25,499 nucleotides of DNA from a virus (taxonomy: Duplodnaviria; Heunggongvirae; Uroviricota; Caudoviricetes), in the IMG/VR virus record IMGVR_UViG_2671180429_000007. One strand, 5' to 3'. A program made the position numbers and the translations under genes. Shown here in pieces: positions 48 through 25,499 of this stretch (position 1 is its first letter; each line of letters opens with the position of its first letter). A model generated the notes under the pieces. The model was not told where the DNA came from and made no database searches. It worked only from the letters and a program-made list of their open reading frames with translations.

Positions 48-1043
48 GTGACCGTGAGAGCACTACTGACCCCTGAAATTGCCCCGCGTATGGGGATCGT
101 ATTGTTCAGGCCAGGTTCAGAGCTGATGCCCCTGTTTATGCAGGGGCGTGTCCTGCTGGAGCCAGAGCCGGAACGTTATTCATCTTTCGCCAGTGGTGCC
201 GTTCCGGCGGCAACACAACCGCTGGCGGATGATCCTGCCGTTCGGACCGTGTTCCGCAATGAGGCAGTGATCCGTCGTGCTGGTGGCGTGGAATGTCATG
301 AAAGCTGGTTACTTCGTGAAAAGGGCTGTCAGTGGCCTCATTCTGACTGGCACAGCGAGAACATGACCACAATGCGGCACGCTCCGGGAGCAATTCGTCT
401 GTGCTGGCACTGCGATAACCAGCTGCGTGACCAGTTCACGGAACGGCTGGAATCAATGGCAACGGATAACTGTGCCCGCTGGGTGTTGTCTGTCGTGCGT
501 CGGGATCTCGGTTTTGATGACAGTCACGTTGTGACAATGCCGGAACTGTGCTGGTGGCTGGTTCGTAATGATCTGGCGGATGCCTTACCGGAAAGTGCAG
601 CCCGTAAGGCACTGAGATTACCGAAGCCTGTTGTGCCATCTGTCACCCGGGAAAGTGACCTTGTGCCTTCGGTTCCTGCCACCAGCATCATCCAGGATAA
701 GGCGAAAAAGGTGCTGGCGCTGAAAGTGGATCCGGAGTCGCCGGAGTCTTTTATGTTACGCCCAAAACGTCGCCGCTGGGTTAATGAAAAGTACACGCGC
801 TGGGTTAAGACGCAGCCGTGTGCATGTTGTGGAAAGCCTGCTGATGATCCCCACCATCTGATAGGCCACGGTCAGGGGGGAATGGGTACAAAAGCGCATG
901 ATCTCTTTGTGTTGCCTTTGTGCAGAAAGCATCACGACGAGCTGCATGCGGATACCGTGGCATTTGAAGAGAAGTATGGCTCCCAGCTGGAGTTGATATT
1001 TCGTTTTATCGATCGTGCGCTGGCAATTGGTGTGCTGGCCTGA
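48..1043 (+). CDS. DUF968-like phage protein (YdfU-like) with C-terminal Cys/His-rich motif
   Basis: 331-aa ORF. C-terminal block (RPKRRRWVNEKYTRWVKTQPCACCGKPADDPHHL...LCRKHHDELH) resembles, from memory, the DUF968 proteins found upstream of Q in lambdoid prophages. Start is uncertain: GTG at 48 with a poor RBS, in-frame stop at 21..23. Confidence 0.6.
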   Translation: MTVRALLTPEIAPRMGIVLFRPGSELMPLFMQGRVLLEPEPERYSSFASGAVPAATQPLADDPAVRTVFRNEAVIRRAGGVECHESWLLREKGCQWPHSDWHSENMTTMRHAPGAIRLCWHCDNQLRDQFTERLESMATDNCARWVLSVVRRDLGFDDSHVVTMPELCWWLVRNDLADALPESAARKALRLPKPVVPSVTRESDLVPSVPATSIIQDKAKKVLALKVDPESPESFMLRPKRRRWVNEKYTRWVKTQPCACCGKPADDPHHLIGHGQGGMGTKAHDLFVLPLCRKHHDELHADTVAFEEKYGSQLELIFRFIDRALAIGVLA

Positions 1044-1045
1044 TT

Positions 1046-1417
1046 TTGTGGAGAAAGTTGATGCGTGATATGTATGAAGTAATGGATCGTTGGGGAGCTT
1101 GGGCTGCTTCAGACAATAGCGGAGTGGACTGGCAGCCGATAGCGGCTGGTTTCAAGGGACTTTTACCTCATGGCAAAAAGTCACGGATTCAGTGTGATGA
1201 TGACGAAGGCATCATGATAGACAGTTGTGTGGCTCGGTTGAGAAGGTATAAACCAGAGGAATATGAGCTCATCATCGCCCACTTTGTTATCGGTATCTCA
1301 TTACGCACTATTGCGAAGAAGAGAAAATGCTCTGATGGCACAATTAGGAAGGAACTGCAAACTGCAATGGGGTTTGTTGACGGCTGTTTAGCAATGTTAG
1401 CTTATAGTATGGCATAA
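1046..1417 (+). CDS. Q-type late-gene antiterminator (small Phage_antitermQ-like form)
   Basis: 123-aa ORF immediately after the DUF968 gene. Motifs (RWGAWAA...WQPIAAGFKGLLP...C..D....C..) match my recollection of the small antitermination protein Q family of lambdoid prophages. Position upstream of the lysis cassette fits. Confidence 0.65.
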   Translation: MWRKLMRDMYEVMDRWGAWAASDNSGVDWQPIAAGFKGLLPHGKKSRIQCDDDEGIMIDSCVARLRRYKPEEYELIIAHFVIGISLRTIAKKRKCSDGTIRKELQTAMGFVDGCLAMLAYSMA

Positions 1418-2611
1418 AAAATAAAATAGATTTACTGCCGATTTTTCAAAAAAGACTGGGAACTGTTTATATCCAACGTAAATAAGGCCTCCATAAAACA
1501 TGGCTGATGCGAGATATTTAACAGTTCTCATCCTTTTTTTAGCTTTATCAATCAAACCTGTAATGCTACTCTTAATACTATCTGCATTATCTTTGATTTC
1601 TTTATTTTCTTCAAACTTTAAATACTTATCGAAAGCGGACTCCACTCGAGAACGTAAGTTGTCGAATGTTTCATTGAATATCTCAATAGAAATGTAATTG
1701 ACTTTTTTTATCATCCAAAGTCCTGCGATAATCAATATTGCTTCGGTTGTTTCATTAGCCTTCACTAAGCCACCAGCAGCTATTAATGCACCGGGAATAG
1801 TCAATGCTTTTGTCTGATTAGATGATATGAATTCGTTAATTTTACTCGTGAACTCAAGATTTTTCTCATCGAGTTCGTTAAGAATTTTATTTACAGAAAA
1901 CCTCTTTGTGTAAATCTCATATAGTTCATCATATTTTTTCCTGACGAGTTCAGTAGAGTTAAGCAAGTCAAAGAAATTGAACGTACCATTTGCTTTAAAT
2001 ACTTCGTTTATGGCTGAGCGTATAACGAGCTTGCGCTCGCTTTTGTGTAAATCATTGATTTTTATTGTGTCGAGAAGCTCCTTTATAATTTCATATTTAA
2101 GAGACGAGTTCGATAAGCGATTAATCTCGCTATATTGTAAAAAATGCGTGAGTTCGACTGTATAACTTTTGTCTTCATTGGTGAAAAATAAGACAGAGCA
2201 GTCACTGTTATGATGATCAGCAATTAATGAAAGGATATCTTTCCACATAAAGAAAATATGGATTTTTTCGATGCTTTCATTCTTAGAAGTAGGGAGTATT
2301 AACGGCGTTCCGATGATATAATTTTTCGGAAGAGCGTTTTGGGTGTTTACTCTAGACCAAAAAGACTCAACATTCTCATAAATTATAGCGTCATCCCAAG
2401 ATGAAGCTTGGCGATCTAGCCAAATTTCATTATTTTCGATGCAGGTTGTTGCCTTTTTATAACCTATAGATTGTAACAGTCTAATTATTTCAGAACTATT
2501 TACAATAACAATGCTTTCTTCAAGACTTATGACAGTGTAGTAGCCCTCAACTCTGCTTGAGGCTCCGTTAATAATCTGCGCTAATCTTGATAAGTCATCA
2601 GCAATTGTCAT
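1397..2611 (-). CDS. Hypothetical protein with C-terminal hydrophobic (likely membrane) segments; second gene of AT-rich two-gene moron
   Basis: 404-aa ORF, visibly AT-rich, K/N/I/E-rich. Start codon at 2611..2609 lies 2 nt after the stop of the upstream gene (2616..2614). Hydrophobic stretches ALTIPGALIAAGGLV, AILIIAGLWMI and YLASAMFYGGLIYVGY near the C-terminus. I recognise no family. 3' end overlaps the Q gene 3' end by 21 nt, convergently. Confidence 0.6.
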   Translation of the reverse strand: MTIADDLSRLAQIINGASSRVEGYYTVISLEESIVIVNSSEIIRLLQSIGYKKATTCIENNEIWLDRQASSWDDAIIYENVESFWSRVNTQNALPKNYIIGTPLILPTSKNESIEKIHIFFMWKDILSLIADHHNSDCSVLFFTNEDKSYTVELTHFLQYSEINRLSNSSLKYEIIKELLDTIKINDLHKSERKLVIRSAINEVFKANGTFNFFDLLNSTELVRKKYDELYEIYTKRFSVNKILNELDEKNLEFTSKINEFISSNQTKALTIPGALIAAGGLVKANETTEAILIIAGLWMIKKVNYISIEIFNETFDNLRSRVESAFDKYLKFEENKEIKDNADSIKSSITGLIDKAKKRMRTVKYLASAMFYGGLIYVGYKQFPVFFEKSAVNLFYFLCHTIS

Positions 2612-2613
2612 TA

Positions 2614-3789
2614 TTAGCTGTCTCTATATCTTTTGAGTTCATCATAATTTGCCTGACTCAATTTTATCACAATTTCGCATTTGTTGTCAGTGAGAATTAC
2701 AGGCTTATTTGACTTTTCGTCTCCAATAGCTCCACGCATTATTTTCAACTTAAAATTATTGTCGTTATCTGCCACTTCAATTGTAAGCGCGCTTTCAGCT
2801 GCTTTAGGAGTTGGTTCAAATTGAGGGTCAATCTGGAAACCATTAAGATTAACAAAATCGACAAACGTTCCCTTACATTTGTGTGAATCAGTCAGGCATG
2901 AGTCAATTATTTTTGAAATATCCTCTATCTTAACGGACTTATTTCCGTGTTTATCTTTTGATTTTTTTTCCAGTAAGGATTTAACTTCATTGTCAATAGT
3001 ATCACGCAGTACACGACCGAGTGAGTTTTTACTAGCAAAAATATCTATAGCACTGAATAATTGCTGAATGCTTCTTTTATTGTCCGAATCATGTCGGCAA
3101 CCTAATGAGTCTTTGAAAAAATCGCTTTTAGATTTACCTTGCAAGAAATGTACATATGAGTCACCCTTGTTTTCTGGATAACTGGCTTCGAATAAAGTTA
3201 AATCGAACATCGCAGCCTGCCGTAAGGCATCGGTATTAATTGGATTTAATCTTGTTGGGGTCAACTTATCCGAATCAAAGTCATAGGCGCTTTGTTTATC
3301 AACCATTACGATTAGAAGTTTCCCCAAATCCTCTGGTTCGGTAGACTTATAGTGGATGAAAACAACGCTCCCCCCCTGAAGTTGGGCAACTCTCGATTCG
3401 TTATTAGCATTATGTTTAAGCTTCTCTATTATAGCTCTAGATAAATCAATGAATTCATTATTTTTATTAATGTATTTTTTTAGGATCGTAGGAATGGATG
3501 AAGGGTTGTGATCTGAGTCTAGGAAGTTATGAAATTTGTTTTTTCGGCTAAATTTTTTCTCAATTCTGGTTATGAATTCAGATGTGACTTCATTTTTTAG
3601 ATCCCAAACTTCACCTAATCGATAATCAAATGCTCTTGAATCATTTTTTTCAAGATTTGCTGTTACAGCACCAATAGGAAAGTACGATTGTTTGCCCAGC
3701 ACTACAACATGAGGCGTGGCACCGCATTTATCGCAAGCTACAGTTGGGTCGTCAAGAACATTGCCACATTCTAAACAAGTTATATCCAT
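2614..3789 (-). CDS. Zinc-ribbon protein with NdpA/YejK-like (NA37) nucleoid-associated domain; first gene of AT-rich two-gene moron
   Basis: 391-aa ORF, AT-rich. N-terminus has CxxC...CxxC (CLECGNVLDDPTVACDKCG). Central block GGSVVFIHY...LLIVMVDKQ...AMFDLTLFE...YVHFLQGKSKSDFFKDSLG resembles my recollection of E. coli YejK/NdpA (GGFVLFCHY...ARIDLTEWE...[22 protein letters not shown]). Needs HMM confirmation. Confidence 0.6.
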   Translation of the reverse strand: MDITCLECGNVLDDPTVACDKCGATPHVVVLGKQSYFPIGAVTANLEKNDSRAFDYRLGEVWDLKNEVTSEFITRIEKKFSRKNKFHNFLDSDHNPSSIPTILKKYINKNNEFIDLSRAIIEKLKHNANNESRVAQLQGGSVVFIHYKSTEPEDLGKLLIVMVDKQSAYDFDSDKLTPTRLNPINTDALRQAAMFDLTLFEASYPENKGDSYVHFLQGKSKSDFFKDSLGCRHDSDNKRSIQQLFSAIDIFASKNSLGRVLRDTIDNEVKSLLEKKSKDKHGNKSVKIEDISKIIDSCLTDSHKCKGTFVDFVNLNGFQIDPQFEPTPKAAESALTIEVADNDNNFKLKIMRGAIGDEKSNKPVILTDNKCEIVIKLSQANYDELKRYRDS

Positions 3790-3801
3790 TATATATCCCG
3801 A

Positions 3802-3842
3802 ATTATAAGAATGAATTTTTATGTGGCTGAAAATTCTATCAA
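3802..3842 (-). promoter_or_regulatory. Candidate sigma70-type promoter region for the minus-strand moron operon
   Basis: On the minus strand a perfect TATAAT (plus-strand coordinates 3807..3802) lies about 12 nt upstream of the ATG of the 2614..3789 gene. A TTGATA element (3842..3837) lies further upstream but is not at canonical spacing to that TATAAT. AT-rich UP-like context. Not experimentally defined. Confidence 0.25.
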
Positions 3843-3906
3843 AACACTAACGCGTACGCAAAAAGTATTGTATTGTGTTAAGAGTGGTTACTTCGCCACA
3901 CAGCTT

Positions 3907-3936
3907 AAACCCGCCGTCGAGCGGGTTTTGTCGTTT
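3907..3936 (+). terminator. Rho-independent terminator, candidate tR' of the late operon
   Basis: AAACCCGC-cgtcga-GCGGGTTT hairpin (stem 3910..3914 / 3921..3925, extendable with A-T pairs) followed by TTTTGTCGTTT. Sits between the Q gene and the holin, where lambdoid phages place pR'/qut/tR'. Confidence 0.5.
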
Positions 3937-4080: not shown

Positions 4081-4407
4081 ATGCCTCATAACCCAAATAC
4101 TTGGCTGGAGTTGGTCCAGAGCTGGTGGCGTGGAGACACACCGCTGGGCGCAGTGATTATGTCGATCGTTATGGCTGGCTTGCGCATTGCCTATTTTGGC
4201 GGTGGTGGTGGCTGGAAGAGAAAAACGCTCGAGATTTTGCTCTGTGGCGCTCTGACGCTGACCTTTGCATCCGCGCTTGAGTATGTCGGATGGCCTAAAT
4301 CGCTTTCTGTTGCCATTGGTGGTGGCGTTGGGTTGATCGGTGTCGATGCTATTCGTGGGGCTGCAATGAGAGTAATCGGTAACAAGTTTGGTGGCTCTAA
4401 GGAGTAA
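4081..4407 (+). CDS. Phage holin
   Basis: 108-aa ORF directly upstream of the endolysin. Hydrophobic helices (AVIMSIVMAGLRIAYF, LLCGALTLTFASAL, VAIGGGVGLIGV) and charged C-terminal tail. Position is that of lambda S. Confidence 0.75.
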   Translation: MPHNPNTWLELVQSWWRGDTPLGAVIMSIVMAGLRIAYFGGGGGWKRKTLEILLCGALTLTFASALEYVGWPKSLSVAIGGGVGLIGVDAIRGAAMRVIGNKFGGSKE

Positions 4408-4410
4408 TTT

Positions 4411-4887
4411 ATGCAGGTACTAAATTCCCAGCGTAAAGCTTTCCTGGATATGGTGGCATGGTCAGAAGGAACGGATAACGGGCGACAACCGACACGTAAC
4501 CACGGTTATGACGTTATTGTCGGTGGCGAACTCTTCACTGATTACTCCGATCACCCTCGCAAACTTGTCACGCTAAACCCGAAACTCAAATCAACAGCTG
4601 CAGGCCGTTATCAACTTCTTTCACGTTGGTGGGATGCTTACCGCAAGCAGCTTGGGCTGAAAGACTTCTCTCCCAGAAGCCAGGACTCAGTGGCATTACA
4701 GCAGATTAAAGAGCGTGGCGCTTTACCGATGATTGACCGCGGCGATATTCGTCAGGCAATCGACCGTTGCAGCAATATCTGGGCTTCACTGCCGGGCGCT
4801 GGTTATGGTCAGTTCGAGCATAAGGCTGACAGCCTGATTGCAAAATTCAAAGAAGCGGGCGGAACGGTCAGAGAGATTGAGGTATGA
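4411..4887 (+). CDS. R: Endolysin, lambda R-type lytic transglycosylase
   Basis: 158-aa ORF. Sequence ([58 protein letters not shown]...) is near-identical to lambda R as I recall it. Confidence 0.9.
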
Positions 4888-5321
4888 GCAGAGTCACCGC
4901 GATTATCTCCGCTCTGGTTATCTGCATCATCGTCTGCCTGTCATGGGCTGTTAATCATTACCGTGATAACGCCATGACCTACAAAGAGCAGCGCGATAAA
5001 GCCGCATCCATCATCGCTGATATGCAGAAGCGTCAACGTGATGTAGCAGAACTCGACGCCAGATACACAAAGGAGCTTGCTGATGCTAACGCGACTATCG
5101 AAAGTCTCCGTGCTGATGTTTCTGCTGGTCGTAAGCGCCTGCAAGTCGCCGCCACCTGTGCAAAGTCAACGACCGGAGCCAGCAGCATGGGCGATGGAGA
5201 AAGCCCAAGACTTACAGCAGATGCTGAACTCAATTATTACCGTCTCAGAAGTGGAATCAACAGGATAACCGCGCAGGTTAACTACCTGCAGGAATACATC
5301 AGGACGCAATGCCTGAAATGA
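4884..5321 (+). CDS. Rz: i-spanin Rz
   Basis: 145-aa ORF whose N-terminus [30 protein letters not shown] matches lambda Rz. ATGA overlap with the endolysin stop. Confidence 0.9.
5077..5268 (+). CDS. Rz1: o-spanin Rz1 (lipoprotein), embedded in Rz in the +1 frame
   Basis: 63-aa ORF entirely inside Rz. Signal peptide with lipobox-like VVSAC followed by a proline-rich segment ([13 protein letters not shown]), as in lambda Rz1. The true start may be an internal Met. Confidence 0.7.
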
Positions 5322-5356
5322 TCGGGCGATGAAAACCAAAAAAACAGGAGCAATAC

Positions 5357-5632
5357 ATGACTAAGCTTTATCACCGCATCTCAGCTTTTCTCTCTGGGTG
5401 CTGGGCGTTTATCACGTCTATTTCGTTCGTCATCTTTAGTTTCGGTAGCACAGCATGCTCGCTTAGTCGGGGTCTGTGGCGTGCTATTTCAGCACTAGCG
5501 CCGAAATTTTTACCTGAAAAGGTTGTTTGGCGAATTGTAGAGCGAATGTGTAGTGAGAGCGTTCGCGAGAAGATTAACGTATTTGGACGTCATCCTCGAA
5601 ATACAGGCGCATTGTGCAGTTCGTTACTGTAG
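5357..5632 (+). CDS. Hypothetical small protein, possible membrane protein
   Basis: 91-aa ORF with a strong AGGAG RBS about 7 nt upstream and an N-terminal hydrophobic segment (ISAFLSGCWAFITSISFVIFSF). No family recognised. Confidence 0.35.
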   Translation: MTKLYHRISAFLSGCWAFITSISFVIFSFGSTACSLSRGLWRAISALAPKFLPEKVVWRIVERMCSESVREKINVFGRHPRNTGALCSSLL

Positions 5633-5750
5633 TCATTACAAAGCCCATCTTTGGGTTTGGTTTGTAATTTCGCTGCTGCAATAATCACCAGAAATATGGC
5701 ATTGTAATTGGTGGTCATATGTCATACCCATCAATTACAAAGGAGCAGAC

Positions 5751-6002
5751 ATGTCATCTACAAAATTAGTTAAAACTATCCTTTTCCATGGAGATAATAA
5801 ATATGAAGTTTATGCAACCTCCGAGTACGCTGACGTAGATAGAATCATTCATTACAAGTTACGCTCATGTAAAAACACAGATGGTTCAGATGGCAAGTCT
5901 GAATCTATATGGGTTGTATATAATCCTGCTGTTCAACTACCGGATGATCTGAACTACAAAAAAGTTAGCAACATAGCTCCTTATCTTGAAAAGTTACAAT
6001 AA
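5751..6002 (+). CDS. Hypothetical small protein (AT-rich moron gene)
   Basis: 83-aa ORF, AT-rich, AGGAG RBS upstream, followed by tandem terminator hairpins. No family recognised. Confidence 0.5.
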   Translation: MSSTKLVKTILFHGDNKYEVYATSEYADVDRIIHYKLRSCKNTDGSDGKSESIWVVYNPAVQLPDDLNYKKVSNIAPYLEKLQ

Positions 6003-6021
6003 ACTTCCTTTTCCACATGCT

Positions 6022-6048
6022 AAAAGCCTCGTATTCGCGGGGCTTTTT
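6022..6048 (+). terminator. Rho-independent terminator
   Basis: AAAAGCCUCG-uauucg-CGGGGCUUUUU: stem of about 6 GC-rich pairs (one U.G) plus flanking A/T pairs, then a T-run. Lies 20 nt after the stop of the 5751..6002 ORF. Confidence 0.5.
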
Positions 6049-6060
6049 ATTGTCATTACA

Positions 6061-6087
6061 AAAGCCACTCCCTACAGAGTGGCTTTG
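6061..6087 (+). terminator. Second hairpin, possible bidirectional terminator
   Basis: Perfect 10-bp inverted repeat AAAGCCACTC / GAGTGGCTTT with 6-nt loop CCTACA, followed by TTTG. Confidence 0.4.
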
Positions 6088-6214
6088 ATAATGGTTTATA
6101 CCCTACACGGGATAACTTAACTGATATCCCTTTTAACGGATAAACGGAGCCAACAATGGCAGAGAATGTCGGCATTATGGCAGTTAAATTTGGATAAATC
6201 GGAGATTAGTACAT

Positions 6215-24327: not shown

Positions 24328-24929
24328 TGAATAAAGCTGTATTGAATAGCGAACTCATTGCCATAAAAGCGGGAGACATTATCATTTATAATTATGATGG
24401 TGAAACGCGGGAATATATTTCTACATCAACTGAATATCTCGCTGTCGGCGTCGGTATCCCGGCATGTTCCTGTTTGGATGCACCAGGTACACATAAAGCT
24501 GGTTATGCAATCTGTCGCTCTGTAGATTTAAATTCATGGGAATATGTGCCAGACCATCGCGGTGAAGTTGTCTATAGTACCGAAACGGGAGATACCAAAG
24601 AAATCACAGTTCCGGGTGATTACCCGGAAAATACAACCACTATAGCCCCATTAACGCCATACGATAAATGGGATGGTGAGAAATGGGTGACCGATACTGA
24701 GGCACAGCATAGCGCCGCAGTAGACGCGGCAGAAGCACAGCGTCAGTCACTGATTGATACTGCAATGGCTTCCATTAGTCTGATTCAACTGAAATTGCAG
24801 GCCGGGCGGAAGCTGATGCAGACAGAAAACACCCGACTTAACGCTGTGCTGGATTACATTGACGCGGTGACGGCAACAGATACCAGCACCGCGCCGGACG
24901 TCATCTGGCCTGAACTGCCGGAGGCGTAG
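24324..24929 (+). CDS. Tail fibre assembly protein (Tfa)
   Basis: 201-aa ORF with ATGA overlap to the fibre gene. C-terminus ...[15 protein letters not shown] is typical of Tfa chaperones. Confidence 0.8.
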
Positions 24930-25320
24930 GCCATTCAATATCTGGCGCACCGGAAGTATCGACCAGTTCCAGTGCGTCCAGATAATCCAGCCACAAATTA
25001 TATTGCGCCAGTTCCTCACCTTTCAGGCGACCAATCGCCGCTTTACCTGGCCATTGTCTGCTGTTCATGTGCTCGTTGGCTTCATTAATAAGTTTTCTTT
25101 TTTTCAAATCCGCCAATGCAATAAGGTTTTCTTTTGATAAAGGTGGTTGCTCTGTCAAAACCGGATATCCCTCCTGATTGCTGACTATTTTCATGCCATT
25201 ATCCTGACCATCCAGTAGTAACAGCCATTCATCCGTGGTTATCTCAACAGCATCTGAAGGTGCTTTATTTAAATCGGTAAAAAAACCATTTTCTTTTTGT
25301 GAATAGAAGTATCTATCCAT
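24901..25320 (-). CDS. Tail fibre assembly protein, alternative copy on the opposite strand
   Basis: 139-aa minus-strand ORF convergent with the + Tfa, overlapping it by 29 nt. C-terminus ...[13 protein letters not shown] parallels the + copy. GGAGA RBS upstream of its ATG. Confidence 0.75.
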   Translation of the reverse strand: MDRYFYSQKENGFFTDLNKAPSDAVEITTDEWLLLLDGQDNGMKIVSNQEGYPVLTEQPPLSKENLIALADLKKRKLINEANEHMNSRQWPGKAAIGRLKGEELAQYNLWLDYLDALELVDTSGAPDIEWPTPPAVQAR

Positions 25321-25340
25321 TTATTAATCTCCAAAAGCAA

Positions 25341-25499
25341 TGAACCGCCCCGGTTTTCCTGGAGAGTGTTTTATCTGTGAACTCAGGCTGCCAGATCATC
25401 GTTTCTGATGGAAGCATAATAAGCTTTTTCTGCTTCTGCCGGAGGGATATGACCCAGCCTTCCCAGCAATCGTCGATTGTTATACCAGTCCACCCACGT
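25341..25499 (-). mobile_element. Partial IS element (IS3-family-like) at window edge
   Basis: Terminal sequence TGAACCGCCCCGG... begins at 25341. A minus-strand ORF running off the window encodes a DDE transposase C-terminus. Element continues beyond 25499. Confidence 0.55.
25383..25499 (-). CDS. Transposase (DDE/rve integrase core) C-terminal fragment, truncated by window end
   Basis: Reverse-strand translation ...TWVDWYNNRRLLGRLGHIPPAEAEKAYYASIRNDDLAA* has the YNxxRxHxxLGxxxPxE-type C-terminal motif of IS3-family OrfB. Stop codon at 25385..25383. Confidence 0.6.
   Translation of the reverse strand, partial: TWVDWYNNRRLLGRLGHIPPAEAEKAYYASIRNDDLAA

What the first reader, a model, noticed from the sequence alone, without database searches (positions are those of the whole stretch)
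1397..3789. AT-rich, reverse-oriented two-gene operon inserted between Q and the late terminator: candidate undescribed defence module
Two tightly coupled minus-strand genes (2 nt between stop and start) sit in the classic lambdoid moron slot between the antiterminator and the lysis cassette, where Stx phages carry stx. They are visibly far more AT-rich than the flanking phage genes and are transcribed against phage late transcription, so they are probably expressed from their own promoter in the lysogen. The pair (DNA-binding-like protein plus a protein with C-terminal hydrophobic segments) has the sensor-plus-membrane-effector look of abortive-infection systems. I do not recognise it as any named defence system.
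Basis: partly seen in the sequence, partly recalled or inferred. Interest (0 to 1): 0.85.

Follow-up and report, generated by a model that had tools for sequence, protein, structure and literature searches.

The report
Known prophage anti-phage system DS-1
The two AT-rich reverse-strand genes next to the prophage Q gene are real.

Summary
Two minus-strand genes lie 2 nt apart, at 2614-3789 (391 aa) and 1397-2611 (404 aa). Their GC is 0.35, against 0.51-0.54 in the flanks. They sit between antiterminator Q and a conserved terminator-bearing leader upstream of the holin.

The pair is not undescribed. Both proteins pass NCBIfam equivalog models DS1_1_antiphage and DS1_2_antiphage. Both are residue-for-residue identical to WP_000355468.1 and WP_000150292.1, which form system DS-1 (working id D390) of DeWeirdt, Mahoney & Laub (Science 2026). 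That construct restricted Bas1 (10^7.6-fold), Bas26, Bas3, T3, T5 and T7.

The architecture is a YejK/NA37 nucleoid-associated protein followed by a protein with an acidic N-domain and C-terminal hydrophobic helices. This matches 'type II PANGU' (Li et al., bioRxiv 2026). In that model the nucleoid protein leaves the degraded host chromosome and activates a membrane effector, causing abortive infection. I could not check sequence identity to PANGU.

The pair is strictly co-conserved: all 19 loci examined carry both genes, in lambdoid, Mu-like, Pf and P4-like elements. The same Q-proximal slot holds Kiwa, a TIGR04255 module or nmpC in sibling prophages.

Verdict: already known as a defence system. 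The effector mechanism and trigger remain open.

The parts
2614..3789 (-). DS-1A: 391-aa nucleoid-associated anti-phage protein (YejK/NA37-like), first gene of the operon
   Evidence: ORF. NCBIfam NF053868 DS1_1_antiphage scores 451.4 bits against a cutoff of 330. Pfam NA37 scores 84.5 bits against a cutoff of 24.6. phrog_3767. 391/391 residues identical to WP_000355468.1 as printed in Table S8 of PMC13092281. PDB YejK 9be2_A, E=1.2e-9.
3718..3777 (-). N-terminal zinc-ribbon of DS-1A (residues 5-24, CxxC...CxxC)
   Evidence: Sub-threshold Pfam zinc-ribbon hits. The CxEC...CxxCG consensus is kept in most of 27 homologues, including the 35%-identical Pseudoalteromonas protein. tblastn matches to the Pseudomonas loci start at query residue 39, so the ribbon was not aligned there. 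The source paper labels it ZF.
2662..3600 (-). NA37/YejK nucleoid-associated domain of DS-1A (Pfam residues 64-376)
   Evidence: HHpred in the source paper places it at residues 42-382.
1397..2611 (-). DS-1B: 404-aa anti-phage protein, the presumed membrane effector, second gene of the operon
   Evidence: ORF. NCBIfam NF053869 DS1_2_antiphage scores 375.2 bits against a cutoff of 315. phrog_5023, E=2e-158. No Pfam or PADLOC hit. Identical over all 399 printed residues to WP_000150292.1, which is listed as 404 aa.
1958..2611 (-). DS-1B N-terminal alpha/beta domain (residues 1-218), net acidic; candidate NAP-binding ('DMK'-like) domain
1757..1936 (-). Most conserved core of DS-1B (residues 226-285): an amphipathic helix running into the first hydrophobic helix
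   Evidence: Alignment A1 shows the invariant residues concentrated here (Y227, S239, N241, K242, E246, K257, E260, Q266, K268, A269, P273, A275, A278).
1709..1807 (-). Hydrophobic helical hairpin of DS-1B (residues 269-301)
   Evidence: Hydropathy maxima at residues 269 and 291; family median Kyte-Doolittle hydropathy 1.8 and 1.6. Helices in the AF2 model.
1448..1516 (-). C-terminal hydrophobic helix of DS-1B (residues 366-388), preceded by the basic stretch KAKKRMRTVK
   Evidence: Sequence and AF2 helices 337-383 and 385-403. Hydrophobicity is only moderate. The hydropathy window was offset (residues 376-398), so this segment was not quantified. The Pseudoteredinibacter homologue is 527 aa and a source names it 'SH3 domain-containing'.
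3815..3842 (-). Promoter-like site for the DS-1 operon (TTGATA-16-AAAAAT), inside the mobile module
   Evidence: Consensus scan; weak evidence on its own. The source paper obtained defence from the predicted native promoter region.
1384..3848 (.). Extent of the exchangeable cargo module (about 2.46 kb)
   Evidence: Homology with sibling prophages that carry other cargo stops at about 1383, which is 34 bp before the Q stop, and resumes at about 3848.
3849..3936 (+). Conserved late-operon leader with intrinsic terminator (hairpin 3907-3928 plus T-run); probable PR'/tR' region
   Evidence: Terminator scan. A 77-bp core (3853-3929) is present in many further E. coli genomes, unannotated, directly upstream of lysis cassettes, including essD of DLP12. 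The promoter itself was not resolved. There is no Rfam family.
1046..1417 (+). Antiterminator Q (RefSeq start corresponds to window 1061); its last ~11 codons belong to the cargo module
4081..5321 (+). Lysis cassette (holin 4081-4407, GH24 lysozyme 4411-4887, Rz-like 4884-5321)

Best explanation
The locus is the anti-phage system DS-1, carried as reverse-oriented cargo in an e14-like lambdoid prophage of E. coli and expressed from its own promoter in the lysogen. This identification is essentially certain. The most likely mechanism is inferred from the published type II PANGU model. DS-1A is a YejK-like nucleoid-associated protein with an N-terminal zinc ribbon, and it sits on the host chromosome in healthy cells. 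When an infecting lytic phage degrades host DNA, DS-1A loses its long-DNA substrate. It then binds the acidic N-terminal domain of DS-1B. DS-1B's hydrophobic helical hairpin and C-terminal helix then damage the inner membrane, so the infected cell dies or stops growing before phage are released (abortive infection). Shown by others: defence by this exact pair; and, for a type II PANGU operon from E. coli, the requirement for both genes, non-toxicity of each gene alone, departure of the nucleoid protein from the nucleoid on T4 infection, and nanomolar binding of the nucleoid protein to the effector's N-domain. Inferred here: that DS-1 belongs to that type, that its trigger is host-genome degradation, and that the effector acts on the membrane.
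For: Identity: NCBIfam equivalogs pass their cutoffs. Identity to the cloned proteins is 100%, and the operon length is the same 2393 bp. Phenotype of the identical pair: -log10 EOP was Bas1 7.6, Bas26 2.7, Bas3 1.7, T3 1.7, T5 1.0 and T7 0.9, the last with small plaques. Architecture: NA37 domain. DS-1B has a confident N-terminal globular domain that is net negative in all 34 homologues. It also has long helices with a conserved hydrophobic hairpin. Pag2B is described the same way, as an N-terminal acidic DNA-mimic domain plus a C-terminal TM region, with Pag2A binding at KD 19 nM. Obligate pairing: an NA37 gene lies directly upstream on the same strand in 19/19 distinct loci, down to profile E about 1e-19 to 1e-21 for DS-1B relatives. 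Trigger plausibility: the restricted phages are Drexlerviridae (relatives of T1), T5 and its relatives, and T3/T7. T1 and T5 are described as phages that degrade the host genome. For T7 this is established knowledge (gp3/gp6). Lambda does not appear among the affected phages. Defence context: neighbours include AbiEii, AAA_15/21 and BstA, and Kiwa occupies the same prophage slot.
Confidence: 0.6

Rival explanations
1. DNA-entry or phage-DNA sensing at the membrane. Membrane-anchored DS-1B holds DS-1A at the inner membrane. There the NAP binds incoming unmodified phage DNA, and either blocks its entry or replication (like superinfection exclusion) or triggers DS-1B directly, without host-genome degradation.
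For: DS-1A is a DNA-binding NA37 protein with an extra zinc ribbon. DS-1B has hydrophobic helices. Protection against Bas1 is extremely strong, 10^7.6-fold with no plaques, which is more typical of early blocks. The affected phages are Drexlerviridae, T5 and T5-like, and T3/T7. The system is prophage-encoded like many exclusion systems.
Against: Several affected phages show only smaller plaques or a 10-50-fold effect. In the architecturally matching type II PANGU, the NAP is nucleoid-localised before infection and the phenotype is abortive infection. NA37 binding is sequence-nonspecific in PANGU, so discrimination between self and phage DNA would be unexplained.
Confidence: 0.15
2. Decoy or DNA-mimic sensing. 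DS-1A normally binds the DNA-mimicking N-domain of DS-1B or DNA. Phage DNA-mimic or anti-restriction proteins (for example Ocr of T7/T3) perturb this equilibrium and release or activate the effector.
For: The effector N-domain is net acidic across the family, and Pag2B's N-domain is described as a DNA mimic bound by the NAP. T3 and T7 encode the DNA mimic Ocr (established knowledge) and are restricted.
Against: The strongest targets (Bas1, Bas26) are not known to me to encode Ocr-like proteins. In PANGU, NAP binding activates the effector rather than inhibiting it, and escape mutants map to the nuclease EndoII.
Confidence: 0.07
3. Classical toxin-antitoxin module. DS-1B is a membrane toxin held in check by DS-1A as a labile antitoxin, and phage shut-off of host expression frees the toxin.
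For: The two genes are tightly coupled, with a membrane-protein partner and strict co-occurrence.
Against: For type II PANGU, neither gene alone is toxic and both are needed for defence. The gene order (large 391-aa 'antitoxin' first) and the sizes are atypical. Loci with a degraded DS-1A and an intact DS-1B exist in complete genomes, for example the frameshifted DS-1A in strain WL1467. A toxin freed from its antitoxin should not be tolerated.
Confidence: 0.05
4. Not primarily a defence system. It would be a prophage-encoded nucleoid protein and membrane partner that serve prophage biology (lysogenic conversion, chromosome structuring or lysis timing), with defence as a cloning artefact.
For: NA37 proteins are general nucleoid proteins. 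The module lies next to Q and the lysis genes.
Against: Defence was obtained from the native promoter on a low-copy plasmid and is marked as replicated. The pair occurs outside prophages in integrase islands beside AbiE, BstA and AAA_15/21 genes. The same slot carries Kiwa in a sibling prophage. The YejK equivalog model is failed by a wide margin (81 bits against a cutoff of 341).
Confidence: 0.03

Closest known systems
DS-1 (working id D390) of DeWeirdt, Mahoney & Laub, 'DefensePredictor', Science 2026 (PMC13092281; bioRxiv Jan 2025); NCBIfam NF053868 and NF053869
   Same: The proteins are the same: 391/391 residues for DS-1A, and 399/399 printed residues of 404 for DS-1B. Gene order is the same and the operon span is the same 2393 bp. 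Both equivalog HMMs pass their cutoffs.
   Different: Nothing differs at the sequence level. The paper reports the domains (ZF, YejK, TM, CC) and the phage spectrum, but no mechanism for DS-1.
Type II PANGU (Pag2A NAP + Pag2B TM effector), Li et al., bioRxiv 10.64898/2026.04.06.716658
   Same: A YejK-like NAP gene is followed within a few bases by a gene for a protein with an acidic N-terminal domain and C-terminal hydrophobic/TM helices. It is an E. coli system with anti-phage activity, found in mobile elements and defence islands.
   Different: Sequence relationship is untested because no sequences are accessible. The PANGU systems studied in depth restrict T4 and not T1 or T5, whereas DS-1 restricts a T1 relative, T5 and its relatives and T3/T7. 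The DS-1A zinc ribbon is not mentioned in the preprint's main text.
E. coli YejK (NdpA), housekeeping nucleoid-associated protein (PDB 9be2)
   Same: The NA37 fold family: Pfam PF04245 hit, and phmmer E=1.2e-9 over residues 64-324.
   Different: DS-1A fails the YejK equivalog (81.4 bits against a cutoff of 341). DS-1A has an extra N-terminal zinc ribbon, is AT-rich accessory cargo present in about 2% of complete E. coli genomes, and is always paired with DS-1B.
Reverse-oriented morons between Q and the lysis genes of lambdoid prophages (nmpC in DLP12; Kiwa in sibling prophages)
   Same: The slot and the orientation are the same, and the right-hand junction at the conserved leader/terminator is the same.
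   Different: The cargo differs. Unlike stx, which by established knowledge lies downstream of PR'/tR', these cargos lie upstream of the conserved leader.

Membership tests
DS-1 anti-phage system (NCBIfam NF053868 / NF053869) | First protein matches the DS1_1_antiphage equivalog above its curated cutoff | tested here: met
   451.4 bits against a cutoff of 330; residues 10-377 match model positions 3-369 of 369.
DS-1 anti-phage system (NCBIfam NF053868 / NF053869) | Second protein matches the DS1_2_antiphage equivalog above its curated cutoff | tested here: met
   375.2 bits against a cutoff of 315; residues 46-378 match model positions 1-337 of 337.
DS-1 anti-phage system (NCBIfam NF053868 / NF053869) | Sequence identity to the experimentally validated pair WP_000355468.1 + WP_000150292.1 | tested here: met
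   391/391 residues, and 399/399 printed residues (protein listed as 404 aa); the operon span of 2393 bp equals NZ_RRVY01000002.1:220602-222994.
DS-1 anti-phage system (NCBIfam NF053868 / NF053869) | Two genes adjacent, on the same strand, NAP gene first | tested here: met
   A 2-nt gap in the window. The same order holds in 19/19 loci elsewhere.
DS-1 anti-phage system (NCBIfam NF053868 / NF053869) | Reduces phage plating when expressed in E. coli | not testable with these tools
   Reported for the identical proteins in Table S7 of PMC13092281. Not re-tested here.
Type II PANGU (Pag2A/Pag2B) | YejK-like nucleoid-associated protein as the core gene | tested here: met
   Pfam NA37 at 84.5 bits against a cutoff of 24.6; PDB YejK, E=1.2e-9.
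Type II PANGU (Pag2A/Pag2B) | Bicistronic operon with the effector gene less than 40 bp from the NAP gene | tested here: met
   A 2-nt gap. The operon criterion is described.
Type II PANGU (Pag2A/Pag2B) | Effector has an N-terminal acidic DNA-mimicking (DMK) domain that binds the NAP | tested here: inconclusive
   The N-domain is well folded (pLDDT 92.5) and net negative in all 34 homologues (-1 to -19; -8 here). Acidity is moderate. No surface electrostatics, complex model or Pag2B sequence was available.
Type II PANGU (Pag2A/Pag2B) | Effector has a C-terminal transmembrane region | tested here: inconclusive
   There is a conserved hydrophobic hairpin at 269-301 and a hydrophobic helix at 366-388. 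The hairpin helices are short (about 15 and 11 residues), so membrane-spanning topology is not proven. The source paper labels the region TM.
Type II PANGU (Pag2A/Pag2B) | Sequence homology to Pag2A and Pag2B of PANGU-Ecu or PANGU-Ec | not testable with these tools
   No accession or sequence appears in the held text, and no supplements are held.
Type II PANGU (Pag2A/Pag2B) | NAP leaves the nucleoid on infection; abortive-infection phenotype; both genes required | not testable with these tools
   Shown for PANGU-Ecu only.
Housekeeping YejK orthologue | Matches the YejK equivalog NF001557 above its cutoff | tested here: not met
   81.4 bits against a cutoff of 341.
Systems in PADLOC-DB v2.0.0 (2023) | Either protein matches a PADLOC model | tested here: not met
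   No family matched at E<=1 for either protein. The library predates DS-1.
stx-type late-operon moron | Cargo located downstream of the late promoter and first terminator and co-transcribed with the late genes | tested here: not met
   The cargo is on the opposite strand. It lies upstream of the conserved leader/terminator at 3849-3936 and overlaps the Q 3' end.

The most novel reading that the evidence does not exclude
DS-1 may be a mechanistically distinct branch of NAP-based immunity, not a plain copy of the studied PANGU systems. Three features would make it so. First, its zinc-ribbon-bearing NAP responds to infection by T1 relatives, T5-like and T7-like phages but apparently not T4. This implies a different trigger or threshold, such as another nuclease programme, incoming DNA or a phage DNA mimic. 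Second, its partner has an N-terminal domain with no solved-structure relative. Third, that domain is joined to a conserved hydrophobic hairpin flanked by long amphipathic helices, which could act as an inducible alpha-pore-former-like effector instead of a constitutive membrane protein. In addition, the Q-to-late-leader junction of this prophage family would be a general, swappable defence hotspot.
Probability: 0.25. Interest if true: 0.5.

Novelty: already known. Interest (0 to 1): 0.25.

Why it matters
The exact locus has already been cloned, shown to defend, named DS-1 and built into NCBI's annotation models, so the finding adds no new system. It is still useful in three ways. It shows that sequence reading alone predicted a real defence system. 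It connects DS-1, which was published without a mechanism, to the NAP-relocation model of PANGU. It documents that the pair is strictly co-inherited across lambdoid, Mu-like, filamentous and P4-like elements, and that the Q-proximal slot of this prophage family exchanges defence cargo (DS-1, Kiwa and others). Three questions remain open: how the membrane partner kills or arrests the cell, what DS-1 senses in infections by T1 relatives, T5-like and T7-like phages, and what the zinc ribbon does.

Tried and rejected
1. PADLOC v2 models gave no hit. The library is older than DS-1, so this says nothing against defence.
2. Pfam on DS-1B gave only sub-threshold noise: SWIB, CdvA, UPF0184.
3. INPHARED phage genomes gave no match by megablast or tblastn, so no cultured phage genome carries the pair.
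6. Rfam gave no family anywhere in the window.
7. An 'empty site' search with concatenated Q and holin flanks found no record joining both within about 1 kb. The slot therefore seems always occupied in relatives, and I obtained the boundaries from sibling cargos instead.
8. I could not assign a sigma-70 late promoter in the conserved leader by eye or by scan.
9. I looked for PANGU accessions in the preprint text and supplements and found none.
10. Look-up of the Vogesella DS-1A homologue P0207 found nothing on record.
11. An N-domain profile search for RelA/SpoT fusions (Pag1B-like) seemed unlikely to succeed at that sensitivity.
Full report
**Observation.** The window has two minus-strand ORFs at exactly the reported coordinates: 2614..3789 (391 aa) and 1397..2611 (404 aa), separated by 2 nt. 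The module is sharply AT-rich. GC is 0.346 for 1397-3848, against 0.528 to the left, 0.51 to the right and 0.539 for the rest of the window. It is the lowest-GC 2.45-kb stretch in the window. Third-position GC is 0.31-0.33, against 0.45-0.56 in the neighbouring genes. Upstream lies an antiterminator Q gene (phrog_79; RefSeq annotation of an identical prophage). Downstream lie a lambda-family holin, a GH24 lysozyme and an Rz-like gene. A hairpin with a T-run sits at 3907-3928 on the plus strand.

**What the genes are.** The 391-aa protein carries a Pfam NA37 (YejK) nucleoid-associated domain (84.5 bits, cutoff 24.6) behind a weak N-terminal zinc-ribbon signal. The 404-aa protein has no Pfam domain. 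PADLOC-DB v2 (2023) finds nothing. PHROGs places both in phage protein families (phrog_3767 'nucleoid associated protein' and phrog_5023, unknown function).

The decisive result is from NCBIfam. Both proteins pass curated equivalog models, NF053868 DS1_1_antiphage (451 bits, cutoff 330) and NF053869 DS1_2_antiphage (375 bits, cutoff 315). 'DS' stands for 'DefensePredictor discovered system' in DeWeirdt, Mahoney & Laub (Science 2026; PMC13092281). Their Tables S6, S8 and S11 list DS-1 (working id D390) as WP_000355468.1 plus WP_000150292.1 at NZ_RRVY01000002.1:220602-222994. That span of 2393 bp is the same length as window 1397-3789.

The sequences printed in Table S8 are identical to the window's translations: 391/391 residues, and all 399 printed residues of the 404-aa protein. 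[quoted passage not shown] D390 gave -log10 EOP values of 7.6 for Bas1, 2.7 for Bas26, 1.7 for Bas3, 1.7 for T3, 1.0 for T5 and 0.9 for T7, and smaller plaques for SECphi27. It is marked as replicated. Bas01 belongs to Drexlerviridae and Bas26 to the T5-like Markadamsvirinae. Recent PGAP annotations already call the genes 'nucleoid-associated anti-phage protein' and 'anti-phage protein'. The pair is therefore a described, experimentally validated defence system. The paper gives domain labels (ZF, YejK, TM, CC) but no mechanism for DS-1.

**Distribution and co-conservation.** In 5,426 complete E. coli genomes the 2.39-kb module occurs in 106. It is always at least 99% identical, and in every listed record it abuts a Q gene. 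DS-1B homologues found by word-seeded search are confined to Gammaproteobacteria, with the exception of one short contig from a MAG labelled Lactobacillales. An exhaustive profile search finds 772 representative clusters at E<=1e-3 and 359 at E<=1e-10, nearly all 380-450 aa long.

Every locus I could inspect has an NA37 gene directly upstream on the same strand:
- Pseudoteredinibacter, beside AbiEii and AAA_15/21 genes.
- Pseudoalteromonas, in an integrase island; its NAP is 35% identical and keeps the zinc ribbon.
- Serratia, beside BstA.
- Pseudomonas aeruginosa, at the end of a Pf filamentous prophage; the partner is confirmed as a DS-1B homologue by hhalign at 100% probability.
- Twelve of twelve species-representative genomes; one is cut by a contig end and one is degraded.
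- Three distant profile hits, in a Mu-like prophage, an integrase island and a P4-like element.

That makes 19 of 19 distinct loci.

**Anatomy of the insertion.** I compared the window with sibling prophages that share Q and the lysis cassette but carry other cargo. The exchanged segment runs from about 1384, which is 34 bp before the Q stop, to about 3848. Each cargo therefore brings its own last ~11 codons of Q. In the same slot and the same reverse orientation, strain fM51a carries Kiwa (KwaA/KwaB). Strain 32-4 carries a TIGR04255-family three-gene module. DLP12 of K-12 carries the nmpC porin gene. To the right of all four cargos lies a conserved leader (3849-3936). It contains the terminator hairpin and is unannotated in many further E. 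coli genomes.

Q and DS-1B overlap tail-to-tail by 21 nt, so the Q-dependent late promoter must lie in this leader. This is an inference; I could not assign the hexamers. DS-1 is thus convergent with Q and divergent from late transcription. It resembles nmpC more than stx. A promoter-like site for the operon (TTGATA-16-AAAAAT, 3842-3815, minus strand) lies inside the mobile segment.

**Mechanism.** A preprint (Li et al., bioRxiv 10.64898/2026.04.06.716658) defines PANGU systems as a YejK-like NAP plus an effector. Type II pairs the NAP Pag2A with Pag2B, a protein with an N-terminal acidic DNA-mimicking domain and a C-terminal TM domain. For an E. coli type II operon, both genes are required and neither is toxic alone. 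Cultures show abortive-infection behaviour. Pag2A-GFP leaves the nucleoid on T4 infection, and Pag2A binds the Pag2B N-domain with a KD of 19 nM. T4 escapes through denA (EndoII) mutations. For type I, the NAP binds only long DNA, a DNA-binding mutant is auto-toxic with its effector, and the effector occludes the NAP's DNA pore. How Pag2B is activated and what it does are stated to be unknown.

DS-1 has the same architecture feature by feature, so I take this as the most likely mechanism. Host-DNA degradation by the infecting phage frees DS-1A. DS-1A binds the acidic N-domain of DS-1B. DS-1B's hydrophobic helices then compromise the membrane and abort the infection. The spectrum is compatible with this: T1 and T5 are cited as phages that degrade the host genome, T7 does so by established knowledge, and lambda is not among the affected phages.

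**Caveats.** I could not compare sequences with Pag2A or Pag2B, because none are in the held text. The PANGU systems studied in depth restrict T4 but not T1 or T5, the reverse of DS-1's spectrum, although expression conditions differ. The hydrophobic helices are short for true membrane spans. I put the identity as DS-1 near certainty and the mechanism at about 0.55-0.6. The rivals are direct DNA-entry sensing at the membrane, DNA-mimic (Ocr-type) triggering, a classical toxin-antitoxin module, and a non-defence role. They are listed with their evidence in the rival explanations. A frameshifted DS-1A next to an intact DS-1B in strain WL1467 argues against a toxin-antitoxin reading.

**Verdict.** The claim of novelty fails, because this exact pair is DS-1: published, validated and in NCBI's naming models. 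Novelty is 'already known' and interest is low. What remains worth pursuing is the effector mechanism, the trigger for phages related to T1, T5 and T7, the zinc ribbon, and the Q-proximal defence hotspot.

Noticed in passing
window 1384-3848; L022 4527-6254; L023 1991-3402; L027 1060-2127: The slot between Q and the conserved late leader is a reverse-oriented cargo hotspot in this prophage family. It holds DS-1 here, Kiwa (KwaA/KwaB) in strain fM51a, a TIGR04255-family three-gene module in strain 32-4, and nmpC in DLP12. The breakpoints are shared, about 34 bp before the Q stop and at about 3848, so each cargo supplies the last ~11 codons of Q.
   Followed up: partly
window 3849-3936 (+), core 3853-3929: A conserved leader of about 80-90 bp with an intrinsic terminator (hairpin 3907-3928) lies directly upstream of lysis cassettes. 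It is present but unannotated in many E. coli genomes, including K-12 DLP12, and has no Rfam family. It is probably the Q-dependent late promoter/tR' unit, but the promoter hexamers were not resolved.
   Followed up: partly
window 5751-6002 (+); also 5357-5632 (+): There is a second AT-rich islet (5330-6210, GC 0.40) between the Rz-like gene and the HNH endonuclease/terminase genes. It holds an 83-aa ORF (GC 0.34, GC3 0.27; phrog_16949, unknown function; annotated as a hypothetical protein in RefSeq) and a 91-aa ORF (phrog_34701, unknown function). It is a possible further forward-oriented moron.
   Followed up: partly
L001 22617-23790 (E. coli O103 WL1467): In this otherwise identical prophage, DS-1A is split by a frameshift. 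tblastn breaks at about residue 330, and PGAP calls a 331-aa product, while DS-1B stays intact. The system therefore decays in some lysogens, and DS-1B without full-length DS-1A is tolerated.
   Followed up: no
L007-L009 6001-8422 (Pseudomonas aeruginosa): A homologous NAP + DS-1B-like pair (386 aa + 425 aa, overlapping genes) sits immediately beside a Pf-type filamentous prophage (Zot, DUF2523). This suggests that filamentous phages also carry this system as cargo. tblastn matches the NAP only from query residue 39, so the zinc ribbon was not aligned.
   Followed up: partly
L002 6001-7584 / L016 (Pseudoteredinibacter isoporae): The DS-1B homologue is 527 aa, longer than the usual 380-450 aa, and a source names it 'SH3 domain-containing'. 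If the SH3 domain lies in the extension after the last hydrophobic helix, the C-terminus would be outside the cytoplasm. The domain position was not checked.
   Followed up: no
L021 7651-8948 (Photorhabdus viridis): Both genes appear degraded: DS-1A matches only residues 5-125, and DS-1B is split across frames. This is a likely pseudogenised copy.
   Followed up: no
window 48-1043 (+): The gene upstream of Q is annotated DUF968 in RefSeq but matches phrog_96 'HNH endonuclease' end to end (E=2.7e-176).
   Followed up: no
window about 24800-25499 (from the L001 annotation at 44855-45676): The window ends in tail-fibre and tail-fibre-assembly genes on opposite strands, next to a pinE-type invertase just beyond the window. 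This is probably an invertible host-range segment.
   Followed up: no
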